Source: the human T2T-CHM13v2.0 reference genome, Homo sapiens. From it: DNA of 64,000 nucleotides. The DNA lies in assembly GCF_009914755.1 (NCBI RefSeq), contig NC_060927.1; one strand, written 5' to 3'. The translations under genes were made by a program, and so were the position numbers. Positions 43,660 through 60,085 of the stretch are shown in pieces. Position 1 is the stretch's first letter. Every line of letters begins with the position of its first letter. The notes under the pieces were generated by a model that saw only the letters and a list, made by a program, of their open reading frames with translations, was not told the DNA's origin and searched no databases.

Positions 43660-44935
43660 TCCGTATGCCTAAGTTCAAGAATTTCATATACATGGAATCA
43701 AACAGTATATAAACATTTGAGATCAGCTTTTTCACTCCATGTAATTCCCCTGAGATTTGCCCAAGTTGTTGCAGGTACTAATGCTTTGCTCCTTTTTATT
43801 GCTTAGAAGTATTCCATGGTATAGATGTGCCACGGTTTGTTTAACCATCCACCTCTTGAAGAATATTTAGGTTCTGGCTAGTTTTGGGCTGTTATAAATA
43901 AAACTGCTAAAAATCAATTGGCCATATGTGTATAGGTCTATTCCTGGGTTTTCTGTTCTGTTCCATTGGTCCAGGTGTCTATCCCTCTGCCAGTATTGCA
44001 CTGTCTTGGTTATTATAGCTATATAGTGAAACTGAACACTGGGCAGAGTGATTCCTCACACTTTATTTCTCTTTTTCAAAATTGTTTTAGCTACTCTAGG
44101 TCCTGTATCTTCCTATGTAAATTTAACAATAAGCTTCTCTACAATTGTTGTTTGCAATTGTTGTAAAGTGATTGTTAACATTAAGCTTGTCAATGTCTAC
44201 AAAAAAAAAAAACTTTTCTAGGATTTTGGTATAAATTGCAGTAAAATGAGGCATTTGACATCTTTATAATGTTGAGTCTGTTGTTGAGTCTTCTGACTCA
44301 TGAATATGGCACGTCTCTACATTTCTTTAGGTCTTCTTTGATTTCTTTAATCAGCATTTTGTAATTTTCAGGATATAGATCCTTACATATTTTGTTAGAT
44401 TTTGAGTACTTCATTTTCTTCGGAGCAATTGAAAATTGCATTGTGTGTATGCGTGTGTTTTTTAGAGACTTAATTTGTTATAAACAGTTTTAAATTCACA
44501 GCAAAATTGAAAGGAAGGTACAGAGATTCACCATACTACCCCTGCCCTGACACATGCATAACGGCTCCTATTATCAACATCCTCCACCAGAGTAGTACAT
44601 TTTTGACAATTGATGAATCTACACTGACACATCATAATCACCCAAAGTCCACAGTTTACATTGGTGTTCACTCTTGGTATTGAACATTTTTTGGGTTTGA
44701 ACAAATGTATAATGACATGTACTCTCTTCTGGCTTGTAGAGTTTCTGCTGAGAGATCAGTTGTTAGTCTGATGGGCTTCCCAAGTATTTGCTCTTATAAT
44801 ATCATTCAGAGTATTTTCAATGTTCTAAATTTCTCTTTGCTCTATGTATTCATTCTTTTGTTCCCTGCCAACATATTGTGTTTTAATTTTTTCTTTTTGT
44901 ATATTTGTTAGTATATTAAAATGCAATTGATTTTT
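43660..44935 (-). mobile_element. Old L1M fragments (host L1ME-type plus a nested L1 3'UTR at 44460-44865)
   Basis: ORF2/3'UTR phrases; the host resumes at 58741. Confidence 0.7.
44721..44781 (-). mobile_element. 61-bp internal L1PA ORF1 fragment
   Basis: 58/61 identical to the reverse complement of 36284-36344 in this window. Confidence 0.85.
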
Positions 44936-47157
44936 TTAAACTTCTGTTTTAAGTTTAGGGGTACATGTGCAGGATATGCAGGTTTGTTACACAGGTAAGG
45001 ATGTGTCATGGGGGTTTGTTGTACAGATTATTTCATCACCAAGATATGAAGCCTAATAATATTCATTCGTTATTTTTCCTGATCCTCTCCCTCCTTCCTC
45101 CATCCTTCCTACCCTCTGCCATCTGGTAGGCTCCCGTGTGTGTTGTTCACCTCTATGTATTCATGTGTTCTCATCATTTGGCTCCCACTTGTAAGTTAGA
45201 ATGTGTGGTATTTGGTTTTCTCTTCCTGAATTAGTTTGCTAAGGATAAGGGCCTCTAGCTCCATCCATTCCTTGCAAAGGACATGATCTCATTCCCTTTT
45301 ATAACTGCATAGTATTCCATGGTATACATGTACTAGATTTTCTTTATCCAGTCTATCATTAATGGGCATTTAGGTTGATTTCATGTCTTTGCTAGTGTGA
45401 CTAGTGCTACAATGAACATATGCATGCATGTGTCTTTATAATAGGGAAAGATTTATATTCCTCTGGGTATATACCCACTAATGGGATTGCTGGGTTGAAT
45501 GGTATTTCTGCCTCTAGGTCTTTGAGAAATCACCACACTGTCTTCCACAATGGCTGAGCTAATTTACACTCCCACCAACAGTATAAAAGCATTCCTTTTT
45601 CTCCACAGGCTCAGCAGCATCTGTTGTTTTTTGACTTTTTAATAATAGCCATTCTGACTGGTATGAGATGGTATCTCATTATGGTTTTGATTTGCATTTC
45701 TCTAATAATCAGTGATGTTGAACTTTTTTTCATATGTTTGTTGGCTGCATGTATGTCTTCTTTTGAGAAGTGTCTGTTCATGTCCTTTGCCCATTTTTAA
45801 TGGGGTTGTTCGTTCTTTTCTTGTAAATTTGTTTAAGTTCCTTATAGATGCTGTATATTGGACCTTTGTCAGATGCATAGATGGCAAAAGTTTTCTCCCA
45901 TTCTGTAGATTGTCTGTTTACTCTATTGATAGTTTCTTTTGCTATGCAGAAGCTCTTTAGTTTAATTAGATCCCATTTGTAAATTTTTGCTTTTGCTGTA
46001 ATTGCTTTTGGCATTTTTGTCATGAAATCCTTCCCTGTGCCTATATCCTGAATGGTATTGCGTAGGTTTTCTTCTAGGGCTTTTATAGTTTTGGGTTTTA
46101 TGTCAAAGACATTTAAGTTTAAAAGCATTTAGGTCTTTAATCTATCTTGAGTTGATTTTTGTATATGGTGTAAAGAAGGGTCCAGCCTCAATTTTCTGTA
46201 TATGGCTAGCCAGTTCTCCCACCATTTATTAAATAAGGAATCCTTTCCCCATTGCTTGTTTTTGTTAGGTTTGTCAAAGATCGGATGGTTGTAGGTGTGT
46301 GGTATTATTTCTGGGCTCTCTATTCTGTTCCATTGATCTATGTATCTGTTCTTGTACCAGTACTATGCTGTTTTGGTTACTGTAGCCCTTTAGTATAGTT
46401 TGAAGCTGGGTAGCATGGTGTCTCCAGCTTTGTTCCTTTTGCTTAGGATTGCCTTGCCTATTTGGGCTCTTTTTGGGTTCCATGTGAATTTTAAGATAGT
46501 TTTTTCGAATTCTGTGAAGAAAGTCAATGGTAGTTTAATGGGAATAGCATTGAATCTATAAATTGCTTTGGGCAGTATGGCCATTTTTATAATATTGATT
46601 CTTCCTATCTATGAGCATGAAATGTTTTTCCATTTGTGTCATCCCTGATTGCTTTGAGCAGTGGTTTGTAGTTTTCCTTGCAGAGATCCTTCACTTCCCC
46701 TGTTAGCTATATTCTTAGGTATTTTATTCTTTTTGTGGCAATTGTGAATGGAAGTTCATTCATGATTTGGCTCTGTGTTTTGCCTGTTGTTGATGTATAG
46801 GGATGCTAGCAATTTTTGCACATTGATTTTTATATCCTGAGACATTGCTGAAGTTGCTTATCGGCTTAAGGAGGTTTTGGGATGAGACAATGGGGTTTCT
46901 TAGCTACAGGATCATGTCATCTGCAAACAAAGATAATTTGACTTCCTTTCTTCCTATCTGAATACTCTTTATTTCCTTCTGTTGCCTGATTGCTCTGGCC
47001 AGAACTTCTCATACTATATTCAATAGGAGTGATGAGAGGGGGCATCTTTTTCTTGTGCTGCTTTTCAAGAGGAATGCTTCTAGCTTTTGCCCATTTGGTA
47101 TGATATTGGCTGTAGGTCTGTCATATATGGTATGTTCTTATCATTTTGAGGTATATT

Positions 47158-47450
47158 CTTTTTTTTGGAGATGGAGTCTCGCTCTGTCACCCACGCTGGA
47201 GTGCAGTGGCACAATCTCCGCTCACTGCAACCTTCATCTCCTGGGTTCAAGCAATTCTCCTGCCTCAGCCTCCTGAGTAGCTGGGACTACAGGCATATGC
47301 CACAACTGCTGGCTAATTTTTTGTATTTTTAGTAGAGATGGGGTTTCACCATGTTGCCCAGGCTGGTCTTAAACTCCTGAGCTCAGGCAATCTGCCTGCC
47401 TTGGCCTCCCAAAGTGCTAGGATTACAAGCATGAGCTACTGTGCCTGGCC
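47158..47450 (-). mobile_element. AluS (Sz6-like) without TSD
   Basis: Full Alu ending CCTGGCC; the flanking L1 is missing ~90 bp. Confidence 0.9.
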
Positions 47451-58172: not shown

Positions 58173-58740
58173 GAAGGGAAGTTTTCCAGGGAGTGTATTC
58201 TCCTGGGTTTGGTGATAACTGCAACTCAGTCTTTTTTTTTTTCTTAACACAATATTTCTGCTGACTTCTGAAAAATTTTCACTTGAATGTGTAATGAAGG
58301 GGCAGCAGCAGCAACAGTCCTTGGCCCGGAGATGCACCACAGTGCCCAGCAAGTCTTTGGCACTACTTGCCCCACCCTCTTCTTGGTGCCCAGCTCTCTC
58401 CCTGGCCCTAGTCCCTGGGTTAGGCCACCCCACCCCTACTTAGCATTGTGCCTGCCCTGGCACCAGCTGGGCATGCTGGGCTACTGCCTGCCCTCTGGGT
58501 AAAGGTGGAAGGGGTGGGGGATGTCATTGCATGGCCTGTCCCTGGACACAGTCTCCCCAGGCCTGGCCCTGCCATGTGGAATGGCCTGCAGGGTGGATAT
58601 GAGTCTGCAAAGTGCTTGGTGGGTGTCTGCATCAAGCAGCAGGGCCACAGTAGCTGCAGCAGAGGCTCAGCTTGGCTCAGGCCGTGTGGTGCGAGTGATG
58701 CTAAGAATGTTTGTAGTAAGCACAGAGATGAAATAAACCA
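58173..58740 (-). pseudogene. TEAD1: Retrocopy of the TEAD1 5'UTR (non-coding first exons), CpG-decayed, fused to L1
   Basis: Minus strand AACATTCTTAGCATC..CCCACCAAGCACTTTGCAGACTC..ACAGGCCATGCA..CACATTCAAGTGAAAATTTTTCAGAAGTCAGCAGAAA..CACCAAACCCAGGAG..CTCCCTGGAAAACTTCCCTTC matches the recalled TEAD1 mRNA leader. Confidence 0.8.
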
Positions 58741-60085
58741 CAATTGATTTTTGTGCATTGATCTTGTTCCTGCAAACTTGGTGAACTCATTTATTAGTAC
58801 TAGAAGATTTTTTTGTTAGATTCCCTTGGGATGTTCTATGTAGACAATGATATCATCTGCAAATAGAGACAGTTTTACTTCTTCCTTTCCAATCTATATG
58901 CCTTTATCTCAGTTGTATGTTGAATAAGAATGGTGAGAATGTACATCCTTCCCATGTTACTTGTTTTAGGGGGAAAGTATTCATTCTTTCACCATCAGGT
59001 ATGTTATCTCTAGGCTTTGAGGACGCTTTTTATCACGTTGAGGAAGCACCTGTCTGTTCCTACCTTGCTGAGAGTTTTTCATCATTAACAGATGTTGGAT
59101 TTTGTCAAATGATTTTTCTGTACCTAATGGTATGAATATACTGTTTTCTTCTTTAGCCTGTTGATATGGTGAGTTACATTGGTTGATTGTTAAATGTTGA
59201 AACAACCTTTTGTACTTGGAATAAATCCCGTTTTTTCATGGTGTACAATTATTTTATACACTGTTTTATTACTAATGTTTTGTTGAGGATTTTTGTGTCT
59301 AAGTTCATGGCCTTTTGTGTTATTTGTTTATACTGTCTGCCTCTTTGAGTTTGATAACAGGATAATACCTGCCTCAAAAAGTGAGTTAGGAAGTGTTCCC
59401 TCTTTTACCTTCAGGAAGATATTAAGCAAAATTGGTACTAATTCTTTTTTAAATATTTGGTAGAATTCTCCAATGAAGCCTTCTGGTCCTTGATTTCTTT
59501 ATGAGGAGCTTTTTATTTACAAATTTAATATCTTTAATGGTTATTATACTAGTCACATTATCTATCTCATATTGGTTGAGTTTTGGCAGTTTGTGGTTTT
59601 TAAGTATTCAGTCCATTTTTTATATGTCATTGAATTTATGACACTAGAGTTATATGTAGTATCCTTTTAGTATTCCTGTTTCATTTCTGATACTGGTTAT
59701 TTATGTCTTTTTCTCTTTTTTGAGAAAGGTTCCTGCTCTAGTGCCCAGGCTAGATAGAATGAAGTGGCACAATCAGGACTCAAATGATCCTCCTGCCTTA
59801 GCCCCCTGAGTAGCTGAGACTATAGGTGTGCACCACCACACCTGGCTAAATTTTTTTGAATTTTAGTAGAGAAGAGATCTCACTATGTTGCCCAGGCTGG
59901 TCCCAAATTCCTGAGTTCACACAATCCTCCTGCCTCGGCCTCTCAAAGTGCTGGGATTACAGCACTAGAGATTTATCACTTTTACTGATTTTTTTGAAGA
60001 AGTAGCTTATTTTTCTCATTGATTTTTTTCTATTGTTTTAATTTTCAATTTCATTGATTCTGTTCTTATCTTTATATTTCCTTAT
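58741..60085 (-). mobile_element. Host L1ME-type ORF2 continuation
   Basis: CAATTGATTTTTGTGCATTGATCTTG..TCATCTGCAAATAGAGACAGTTTTACTTC continues the 44890-44935 flank. Confidence 0.78.
59715..59962 (-). mobile_element. AluJ with internal deletion
   Basis: Degraded Alu ending CAAAGTGCTGGGATTACAG. Confidence 0.82.

What the first reader, a model, noticed from the sequence alone, without database searches (positions are those of the whole stretch)
44924..58752. TEAD1 5'UTR-L1 chimeric retrocopy bounded by one TSD
Seen: the old host L1 breaks at CAATTGATTTTT (44924-44935) and resumes at an identical 12-mer (58741-58752). The 5' end of the insert (58173-58740) is not L1. It is GC-rich and TG/CA-rich, as expected of a decayed CpG island, and joins the truncated 5'UTR of an L1PA15/16-like element through a ~20-nt A-rich linker (AAAATAAAAAAGTAGAGCCC, minus strand). 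Recalled knowledge: the segment follows the TEAD1 mRNA leader from near its TSS (AACATTCTTAGCATC) across the first exon junction to CTGGAAAACTTCCCTTC. Inference: one retrotransposition event copied L1 RNA and then TEAD1 mRNA (RT template switch), or a TEAD1-promoted transcript read or spliced into an intronic L1 (5' transduction). Either way it would be a fossil of germline or early-embryo TEAD1 RNA in an ancestral primate. It is non-coding, so protein-based pseudogene pipelines would miss it.
Basis: partly seen in the sequence, partly recalled or inferred. Interest (0 to 1): 0.85.

Follow-up and report, generated by a model that had tools for sequence, protein, structure and literature searches.

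The report
Spliced TEAD1 leader fused to L1
This is an old retrotransposed copy of a fusion RNA that began at the TEAD1 promoter, was spliced, and ran into a LINE-1 element, a kind of event described only recently, with a second LINE-1 sitting beside it.

Summary
CAATTGATTTTT occurs at 44924-35 and 58741-52. The older minus-strand host L1 is continuous across the interval, with that 12-mer present once at the homologous L1 site. Window 58738-58172 (minus) copies two exons of the chr11 TEA-domain gene (TEAD1 by position), with a 573-bp GT-AG intron removed.

1. The "A-rich linker" is templated. Thirty-four nt (58171-58138) match chr11:12,824,251-284 at 30/34. That site lies inside TEAD1 intron 2, on the sense strand, directly after a strong cryptic 3' splice site. 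The RNA was therefore exon 1, exon 2 and an intron-2 cryptic exon, followed by L1. This favours a TEAD1-promoted transcript spliced next to an intronic L1 (5' transduction), like the published RAP1GDS1/L1PA2 case. No L1 lies at the chr11 site today.

2. The 13.8 kb holds two L1s. L1-A (58135-52226) carries the TEAD1 leader. L1-B (52215-44936) is full length and of another family. Two later Alus are also present. L1-A and L1-B have equal terminal branch lengths (0.096 and 0.093). Most likely the chimera owns the 12-bp duplication and L1-B later inserted at its tail.

TEAD1 is absent from the published list of 17 such chimeras, so this is a new member of a known kind.

The parts
58741..58752 (.). 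Right copy of the 12-bp duplication (CAATTGATTTTT). It abuts the 5' end of the TEAD1-derived segment.
   Evidence: One search shows the stretch is single at the homologous site of another L1.
58320..58738 (-). Copy of TEAD1 exon 1, a decayed CpG island. It starts about 30 nt upstream of AACATTCTTAGCATC.
   Evidence: query 3-422 matches chr11:12766906-12767341 at 75% identity. (parent ends at GAG|GTAAGT). (1 of 58 parental CpGs intact, 19 TG, 26 CA; non-CpG differences 39/315).
58172..58319 (-). Copy of TEAD1 exon 2, joined exactly to exon 1. Its 3' end is 6 nt shorter than the parent within a CCCTTC/CCTTTC repeat, and its last base reads A where the parent has the G of a CpG.
   Evidence: The deletion and the G-to-A change are my reading of the alignment (inference).
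58138..58171 (-). 34-nt copy of chr11:12,824,251-12,824,284. That sequence lies in TEAD1 intron 2 immediately after a cryptic 3' splice site (cctattcctAG|AAATAAAAAAG...) and starts with AATAAA.
   Evidence: pattern hit in the intron on the sense strand; 4 non-self hits genome-wide; reversed-pattern control 3. (sequence). (30/34 identical, all 4 differences transitions, E 2.5e-7).
58136..58137 (-). Two bases (CT on the minus strand) assigned neither to chr11 nor to L1.
52226..58135 (-). L1-A. It runs from the start of a ~168-nt 5'UTR repeat unit to its 3' end (...AAAATAAAAGTTAAAATATTTA) and lacks the upstream 5'UTR units that most relatives have. It is interrupted by a later Alu at about 56001-56294.
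   Evidence: about 25 of 29 relatives continue upstream with L1 sequence, judged by eye. (colinear with full-length relatives)..
52216..52225 (-). Ten-nt junction, TTTTAAAATT on the minus strand, between the L1-A 3' end and the L1-B 5' end. It may hold a short A tail and a 5-nt duplication (AAAAT or AATTG, depending on the scenario).
44936..52215 (-). L1-B, a full-length L1 of another family. It has a canonical 5' end (GGAAGTT-GGGGCCACGATGGCC), a ~1.9-kb 5'UTR with 262-bp tandem repeats (50853-51571), and a short A tail at its 3' end. A later Alu lies at about 47160-47450.
   Evidence: (28 of 29 relatives begin within query positions 42-66, at the same GGGGCCAAGATGG motif, with unrelated upstream flanks)..
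44924..44935 (.). Left copy of the 12-bp duplication, followed by the T run of the L1-B tail.
44794..44923 (-). Host L1 (older, minus-oriented), left flank.
   Evidence: colinear with L1-A (+) 53934-54084; weak score of 39.
58753..59200 (-). Host L1, right flank.

Best explanation
A transcript started at the TEAD1 CpG-island promoter. It spliced exon 1 to exon 2, then spliced exon 2 to a cryptic acceptor 56 kb into the ~89-kb intron 2. After 34 nt it continued into a sense-oriented, protein-coding-length L1 (L1-A) that lacked the upstream part of its own 5'UTR. This is host-promoter co-option, or 5' transduction by splicing. The fusion RNA was retrotransposed once by target-primed reverse transcription into an older L1 on chr3, at a TTTTT/G site, making the 12-bp duplication. 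The donor L1 at the chr11 site was either never fixed or later lost. A second, full-length L1 of another family (L1-B) then inserted at the TT/AAAA site formed by L1-A's tail and the downstream duplication copy. That pushed the duplication copy 7.3 kb away. Two Alus came later still.

Shown: the three TEAD1-locus pieces, their canonical splice junctions, the two L1s, and host continuity. Inferred: the former intronic L1, the order of the two L1 insertions, and an age of roughly 40-65 Myr (from about 0.095 substitutions per site, using recalled neutral rates).
For: Gene identity:
- TEA-domain exons (PF01285) lie at chr11:12856822 and 12954762 on the same strand, 90 and 188 kb downstream of the matched CpG island. 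The other three TEA loci are on chr19, chr12 and chr6. The assignment to TEAD1-4 by chromosome is recalled.

Splicing:
- The intron-1 borders are GAG|GTAAGT and CCAG|GACTG, and the copy carries the exact junction.

Third piece:
- A 25-nt pattern with up to 3 mismatches gave 4 non-self hits genome-wide, against 3 for the reversed-pattern control. One hit lies in TEAD1 intron 2 on the sense strand. My estimate of that placement arising by chance is about 6e-5.
- The match extends to 34 nt (30/34) and begins right after ...tttccattacctattcctAG.
- It fits use of the CG|GTAGGA donor of exon 2.

L1-A:
- It runs from the 5'UTR to the 3' end and is colinear with full-length relatives.

Single copy:
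- No sibling copy of the TEAD1 part was found in the genome.

Host continuity and the 12-bp duplication.

Precedent:
- Law and Burns 2026 (PMC13174262; sections 10, 13, 14, 20 and 21 and Table S5 part 1 read) list 17 mRNA or lncRNA 5'-exon/L1 chimeras. These are in sense orientation, carry near-full-length L1s, and lie next to long downstream introns.
- Their set includes RAP1GDS1 exons 1-2 spliced to a cryptic acceptor 15 bp upstream of an intronic L1PA2 with a disabled 5'UTR.

Insertion order:
- The sense-strand motif for an L1-B insertion is TT/AAAA.
- The chimera would have a 12-bp TSD beginning AAAAA, as in Table S5.
Against: - No L1 follows the 34-mer at chr11 in this assembly. The 765 nt downstream show no similarity to L1-A, so the cis source is hypothetical.
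- The 34-mer has no GT donor at its end, and 2 nt (CT) are unassigned.
- The 34-mer begins with AATAAA, and the junction lies 27 nt after it. That also fits a cleavage/polyadenylation end (see rival 1).
- The exon-2 end matches only if a 6-nt deletion and a CpG transition are allowed.
- L1-A has almost no A tail (TTTTAAAATT).
- L1-A and L1-B have equal terminal branches, 0.096 and 0.0925, so age does not order them.
- The 5'UTR-based estimates disagreed with each other: A 16.0% against B 9.8% divergence; transversions 29/619 against 16/528, which by my own two-proportion estimate is not significant; CpG survival 1/28 against 4/34.
- The exon structure of TEAD1 was not checked against an annotation.
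Confidence: 0.55

Rival explanations
1. Template jump onto a short TEAD1 RNA. TEAD1 made a short intronic-polyadenylation transcript (exon 1, exon 2, and a ~35-nt terminal exon that starts with AATAAA). During retrotransposition of L1-A, the reverse transcriptase reached the 5' end of the L1 RNA, at a 5'UTR repeat-unit boundary. It added 2 nt and jumped to the 3' end of that short RNA, in the way U6/L1 chimeras form.
For: - AATAAA sits at positions 2-7 of the 34-mer, and the junction is 27 nt further on. By recalled knowledge, that is within the usual distance for cleavage.
- No L1 lies at the chr11 site.
- L1-A similarity starts exactly at a repeat-unit start. The unit (query 41-208) recurs in tandem in relatives, and one relative of 29 (L025) starts there with an unrelated flank.
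- There are 2 unassigned nt at the junction.
- 15 of 17 published cases also lack an intronic L1 (PMC13174262, section 20).
Against: - No A tract lies between the 34-mer and L1-A, which a polyadenylated acceptor should leave.
- A 35-nt terminal exon with the poly(A) signal 1 nt after the acceptor would be unusual (recalled knowledge).
- The documented RAP1GDS1 precedent explains the same anatomy by cis-splicing.
Confidence: 0.22
2. One event for everything between the 12-mers. Reverse transcription copied full-length L1-B RNA, jumped to the 3' end of the TEAD1-L1-A fusion RNA, and copied it to its cap. The whole 13.2 kb (without the Alus) is then bounded by one true TSD.
For: - The perfect 12-bp duplication lies at the outer ends only.
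- The terminal branch lengths are equal, 0.096 and 0.0925.
- L1-B is complete to its canonical 5' end.
- Double template jumps are described for a fungal LINE (PMC2104539; only the search listing and the start of the abstract were seen).
Against: - This needs a rare jump between two different L1 RNAs and a very long cDNA.
- Only AAAA lies between L1-A and L1-B.
- AAAAT/AATTG at 52216-52221 reads as a short duplication of a separate insertion.
- Once the TEAD1-L1 join is explained by splicing, nothing else at the locus calls for a jump.
Confidence: 0.1
3. L1-B came first. Full-length L1-B made the 12-bp duplication. The TEAD1-L1-A chimera inserted later, inside L1-B's upstream duplication copy, with only a 5-bp TSD (AATTG on the minus strand: 52215-52219 and 58741-58745).
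For: - Every base is accounted for without extra nucleotides. AATTG is present at both ends of the chimera, and L1-B is flanked by 12/12 identical copies.
Against: - The target would be TC/AATT, a poor endonuclease motif.
- The TSD would be far shorter than the 14-17 bp in the rows of Table S5 that were read.
- A hit within one particular 12-bp stretch is unlikely a priori.
- No measure shows L1-A younger than L1-B.
Confidence: 0.15
4. The TEAD1 piece is an independent partial processed pseudogene that landed next to an L1 5' end.
For: An A-rich stretch follows the exon-2 copy.
Against: - That A-rich stretch is templated by TEAD1 intron 2.
- No separate duplication flanks the TEAD1 piece.
- The + strand at the junction offers no T-rich priming site.
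Confidence: 0.03

Closest known systems
RAP1GDS1/L1PA2 promoter co-option chimeras (Law and Burns, Cell Genomics 2026, PMC13174262, sections 14 and 21)
   Same: [quoted passage not shown]
- The L1 has full coding length but an incomplete 5'UTR.
- The orientation is sense, and the insertion is by TPRT elsewhere in the genome.
   Different: - In the RAP1GDS1 case the source L1 is still in the intron and produced several progeny. Here no L1 is at the intron-2 site and only one copy exists.
- This event is far older: about 0.095 substitutions per site, against an L1PA2-age event there.
- Here a second L1 abuts the chimera.
mRNA/lncRNA 5'-exon-L1 chimeras in general (same paper, section 13 and Table S5; 17 cases such as MAP3K13, FHIT, PALLD and CREM)
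   Same: - First exons, sense orientation, near-full-length L1.
- The last included exon precedes a very long intron (median 48 kb there, ~89 kb here).
- In most cases no intronic source L1 is found.
   Different: - TEAD1 is not in that list (0 occurrences in the 4 supplementary files held).
- The last non-L1 piece here is intronic sequence behind a cryptic acceptor. It does not end at a donor.
U6/L1 and other template-switch chimeric retrogenes (Buzdin and colleagues, recalled; PMC4476161 seen only in the search listing)
   Same: A cellular RNA copy lies 5' of an L1 in the same orientation, with one TSD around both.
   Different: - In those chimeras the L1 part is usually severely 5'-truncated, and the 5' part is a small RNA ending at its natural 3' end.
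- Here the L1 is nearly complete, and the 5' part carries two splice junctions plus intronic sequence.
Processed pseudogene
   Same: Intron loss and origin from RNA.
   Different: - There is no coding sequence and no poly(A) tail of its own.
- Only the first ~620 nt of a transcript are present, and they are fused to an L1.

Membership tests
5'-exon/L1 chimeric insertion (5' transduction by splicing; Law and Burns 2026) | The non-L1 5' segment maps to the first exons of a gene with the introns removed. | tested here: met
   exon 1 and exon 2 are joined, and the 573-bp GT-AG intron is absent.
5'-exon/L1 chimeric insertion (5' transduction by splicing; Law and Burns 2026) | Same orientation as the L1, and the L1 is near full length. 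| tested here: met
   L1-A at 58135-52226 is colinear with full-length relatives, and both parts are on the minus strand.
5'-exon/L1 chimeric insertion (5' transduction by splicing; Law and Burns 2026) | [quoted passage not shown] | tested here: inconclusive
   The 12-bp duplication also encloses L1-B. L1-A's tail is only TTTTAAAATT. The motif is AC/AAAAA if the 12-mer belongs to the chimera.
5'-exon/L1 chimeric insertion (5' transduction by splicing; Law and Burns 2026) | The non-L1 piece and the L1 arrive at the same node in multi-species alignments. | not testable with these tools
   No other primate genome or alignment was available.
Promoter co-option by an intronic L1 (RAP1GDS1 type) | The transduced sequence includes intronic DNA between a cryptic acceptor and the L1. 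| tested here: met
   the 34 nt following cctattcctAG in TEAD1 intron 2.
Promoter co-option by an intronic L1 (RAP1GDS1 type) | A source L1 is present at that intronic position. | tested here: not met
   no L1-A similarity in the 765 nt downstream of the 34-mer in this assembly. Loss of a polymorphic source cannot be excluded.
Template-switch chimeric retrogene (U6/L1 type) | The 5' part ends at the natural 3' end of the captured RNA. | tested here: inconclusive
   The junction lies 27 nt after an AATAAA, but no A tract is present and no 3'-end data were available.
TEAD1 (identity of the parent gene) | The matched exons belong to the chr11 TEA-domain gene. | tested here: met
   TEA-domain exons lie 90 and 188 kb downstream on the same strand, and the spliced third piece lies between them. 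The name TEAD1 for the chr11 paralogue is recalled. No annotation of chr11 was seen.

The most novel reading that the evidence does not exclude
The whole 13.8-kb interval could be the product of one reverse-transcription run. In that reading the run copied a full-length L1 of one family and then jumped to a TEAD1-led fusion RNA of a second, co-active L1 family. That would be a direct fossil of two competing L1 lineages sharing one RNP or integration event. It would also capture an L1 caught replacing its promoter with a host CpG-island leader, the proposed route by which primate L1s acquired new 5'UTRs.
Probability: 0.1. Interest if true: 0.7.

Novelty: new member of a known kind. Interest (0 to 1): 0.42.

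Why it matters
This adds an old example (tens of millions of years) to a class catalogued only in 2026, in which host-gene first exons are spliced onto an L1 and then retrotransposed.

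It has an unusually informative anatomy. Three TEAD1-locus pieces and two canonical splice junctions show that the fusion was made at the RNA-processing level, not by a jump onto mature mRNA.

It records an ancestral TEAD1 start site and a cryptic intron-2 acceptor.

It shows how an L1 with an incomplete 5'UTR can borrow a CpG-island promoter. That bears on how L1 lineages replaced their 5'UTRs.

It also illustrates a pitfall: identical flanking 12-mers can enclose more than one insertion. Protein-based pseudogene screens would not find the copy. RefSeq marks two 'enhancer' elements (58008-59009) over the decayed leader.

Tried and rejected
- Reading the linker as an untemplated or oligo(A) filler, with TEAD1 ending 7 nt before the donor. 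This was my working view, and I dropped it.
- Reading GTAGAGCCC... as the start of L1-A by eye. Dropped, because that stretch is chr11 intron sequence.
- Dating L1-A against L1-B from 5'UTR pieces. These gave A 16.0% against B 9.8%, but the regions are not homologous, the L1-A family consensus kept 0 CpGs, and the counts are small. The homologous 3' 1.17-kb tree gave equal branches (20 sequences). L042 in that tree was badly cut by me, has a 0.46 branch and should be ignored.
- A BLAST check of host continuity failed for the left flank at E 1e-5. A local alignment was used instead.
- Scenario 'L1-B inserted with TSD CAATT and its tail happens to read GA+T7': rejected as needing an unexplained GA.
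- Literature searches for a described TEAD1 retrocopy gave nothing relevant by title and start of abstract: 'TEAD1'+'retrocopy' found 1 paper, and 'TEAD1'+'processed pseudogene' found 8 papers, 5 of them listed.
- The PDF supplements of PMC13174262 (mmc1, mmc6, mmc7) could not be read. Parts 2-3 of Table S5 were searched but not read through.

Full report
**1. The observation**

The 12-mer CAATTGATTTTT is exact at 44924-44935 and 58741-58752 on the + strand. A third copy lies at 43909-43920 on the - strand. That is 3 matches against 0.09 expected, and none of 100 shuffles reached 3.

The two flanks belong to one old L1, which is itself minus-oriented. I used the homologous stretch of another L1 in the window as a ruler. 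Host-left 44794-44935 ends at ruler position 54084. Host-right 58745-58900 starts at 54077. The host is therefore continuous, and only the 12-mer region is duplicated. The left alignment is weak (score 39) but colinear.

On the + strand the left copy is followed directly by a T run and the antisense 3' end of an L1. That is what target-primed reverse transcription at TTTTT/G would produce.

**2. The non-L1 5' end is a spliced copy of the TEAD1 leader**

I searched the window's own assembly with the reverse complement of 58150-58740. Besides the window itself, it gave only two matches, both on chr11 and both on the + strand:
- 12766906-12767341, at 75% identity
- 12767913-12768060, at 83% identity

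In the chr11 sequence the first block ends at GAG|GTAAGT and the second begins after CCAG|. The copy carries the exact exon-exon junction with the 573-bp intron missing.

TEA-domain exons (PF01285) lie 90 and 188 kb downstream on the same strand. The other three TEA loci are on chr19, chr12 and chr6. By the recalled chromosomal assignment of TEAD1-4, the parent is TEAD1. I saw no annotation of chr11.

The copy begins about 30 nt upstream of the AACATTCTTAGCATC string and directly abuts the 12-mer. The parent exon 1 is a CpG island. Of its 58 CpGs, 1 is intact in the copy, 19 read TG and 26 read CA. Non-CpG differences are 39/315 in exon 1. After removing the non-homologous last 7 columns, they are about 11/133 in exon 2, which is my recount. 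No second copy exists in the genome.

**3. The 'linker' is a third TEAD1-locus exon**

BLAST-supported L1 similarity to 29 genomic relatives starts at 58135. That left 37 nt unexplained.

I used a 25-nt pattern from this stretch, allowing up to 3 mismatches. It found 4 non-self places in the genome, against 3 for the reversed-pattern control. One is chr11:12824250-12824274, on the strand that makes it sense with TEAD1, and it lies inside the intron between exon 2 and the first TEA-domain exon. My estimate for such a placement arising by chance is about 6e-5.

The fetched kilobase reads ...ctgtttccattacctattcctAG|AAATAAAAAAGTAAAGCCTAAGACTCCAGCCTGA|aaatag.... Window 58171-58138 matches the 34 nt after the AG at 30/34, and all four differences are transitions (E 2.5e-7).

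The expected splice product of exon 2 (...CCCTTCCCTTTCG) and this piece differs from the observed ...CCCTTCA|AAATAAAAAAG in two ways. One is the loss of one unit of the CCCTTC/CCTTTC repeat. The other is a G-to-A change at a CpG. With those two changes (inference), the CG|GTAGGA donor of exon 2 was used.

The RNA therefore carried two canonical splice junctions. The second spans 56.2 kb to a cryptic acceptor. After the 34 nt come CT and then L1.

**4. Two L1s, not one**

Alignment to three full-length relatives shows two elements:
- L1-A runs from its 5'UTR (58135) to its 3' end (52226).
- A second element runs from 50346 to 44936.

The GC-rich 1.9 kb between them is not foreign DNA. It is the long 5'UTR of the second element, with 262-bp tandem repeats. 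It ends at 52215 in GGAAGTT-GGGGCCACGATGGCC. In 28 of 29 genomic relatives, similarity begins at this same GGGGCCAAGATGG motif, within query positions 42-66, with unrelated DNA upstream. L1-B is therefore full length and belongs to a different family, with a different 5'UTR and 3' end.

L1-A begins at the start of a ~168-nt 5'UTR repeat unit. About 25 of 29 relatives carry further L1 units upstream, judged by eye, so L1-A lacks part of its 5'UTR.

Alus with their own duplications sit at about 56001-56294 and 47160-47450.

**5. Ages**

A tree of the homologous 3' 1.17 kb held 20 sequences. One of them, L042, I cut badly, and it should be ignored. Terminal branches are 0.096 for L1-A and 0.0925 for L1-B. 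L1-A relatives range 0.105-0.122 and L1-B relatives 0.078-0.098.

The 5'UTR-based measures leaned towards L1-A being older:
- total divergence 16.0% against 9.8%
- transversions 29/619 against 16/528
- CpG survival 1/28 against 4/34

These regions are not homologous, and the differences are not significant by my own estimate. The TEAD1 pieces differ from the parent by about 11% at non-CpG sites, summed over both lineages.

Everything is compatible with one period. With recalled neutral rates that is roughly 40-65 Myr ago. Nothing shows L1-A to be younger than L1-B.

**6. Mechanism of the fusion**

The anatomy is that of the RAP1GDS1/L1PA2 case of Law and Burns (PMC13174262, sections 14 and 21). 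There, exons 1-2 are spliced to a cryptic acceptor 15 bp upstream of an intron-2 L1 with a disabled 5'UTR.

It also fits their wider class of 17 chimeras: first exons, sense orientation, near-full-length L1, and a long downstream intron (section 13; Table S5 part 1). TEAD1 does not occur in the four supplementary files held.

I therefore favour a TEAD1-promoted, twice-spliced transcript that ran into an L1 then lying at chr11:12,824,285, retrotransposed in cis.

The weak point is that no L1 lies there now. That is also true for 15 of the 17 published cases (section 20).

The main rival is a template jump from the 5' end of L1-A RNA to the 3' end of a short TEAD1 transcript. The 34-mer starts with AATAAA, the junction is 27 nt further on, and 2 nt are unassigned. 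Against it, no A tract is present.

**7. Who owns the 12-bp duplication**

There are three possible histories:
- (a) Chimera first with the 12-bp TSD (sense motif AC/AAAAA). L1-B inserted later at TT/AAAA, where L1-A's end meets the downstream TSD copy, with an AAAAT duplication and one extra T.
- (b) L1-B first. The chimera inserted later into L1-B's upstream copy, with a 5-bp AATTG duplication at a poor TC/AATT site.
- (c) One event with a jump from L1-B RNA to the fusion RNA.

Junction sequences fit all three. Endonuclease-site quality and the TSD lengths in Table S5 favour (a). My odds are about 0.55, 0.15 and 0.10. Species comparison would decide.

**8. Verdict**

The core of the finding is real and is now better defined. 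The 'single L1 with an A-rich linker' description is wrong in detail.

The kind of event is known since 2026. This instance appears unlisted and is much older than the best-documented case.

Noticed in passing
window 49950-51735 (+): Exon 1 of the predicted lncRNA LOC105377067 (from the hub table) lies wholly antisense within L1-B's ORF1-proximal region and its tandem-repeat 5'UTR. It runs out of the L1 towards higher coordinates, as an L1 antisense-promoter transcript would.
   Followed up: no
window 58008-59009: The two RefSeq 'enhancer' elements tile the decayed TEAD1 leader plus the host-L1 junction. The two CATTCC motifs at the start of the parent exon 1 are lost in the copy.
   Followed up: partly
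window 44723-44781: A ~59-nt stretch matches the ORF1-side region of L1-A, L1-B and L042 at 85-88% identity, on the antisense strand. It is not colinear with the host L1 around it. It may be a small younger L1 fragment or a rearrangement.
   Followed up: no
window 43909-43920 (-): A third exact copy of the 12-mer lies on the opposite strand about 1 kb left of the insertion site. The 12-mer is part of an L1 ORF2 region, so this may be an inverted or separate L1 piece.
   Followed up: no
L027, L040, L023, L024 and others (loci): Relatives of L1-A carry one to three extra tandem copies of the ~168-nt 5'UTR unit (query 41-208). This is a monomer-like, copy-number-variable promoter region in a primate L1 family.
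   Followed up: partly
L091 201-240 (chr11:12,824,250-289): The cryptic acceptor in TEAD1 intron 2 is followed at once by AATAAA. The site could act today as an intronic polyadenylation or poison exon of TEAD1.
   Followed up: no
window 55987-56000 and 56295-56308: The Alu inside L1-A has a clear duplication of about 14 bp (CCCTTCTTTGTCTT), which marks it as a simple later insertion.
   Followed up: yes
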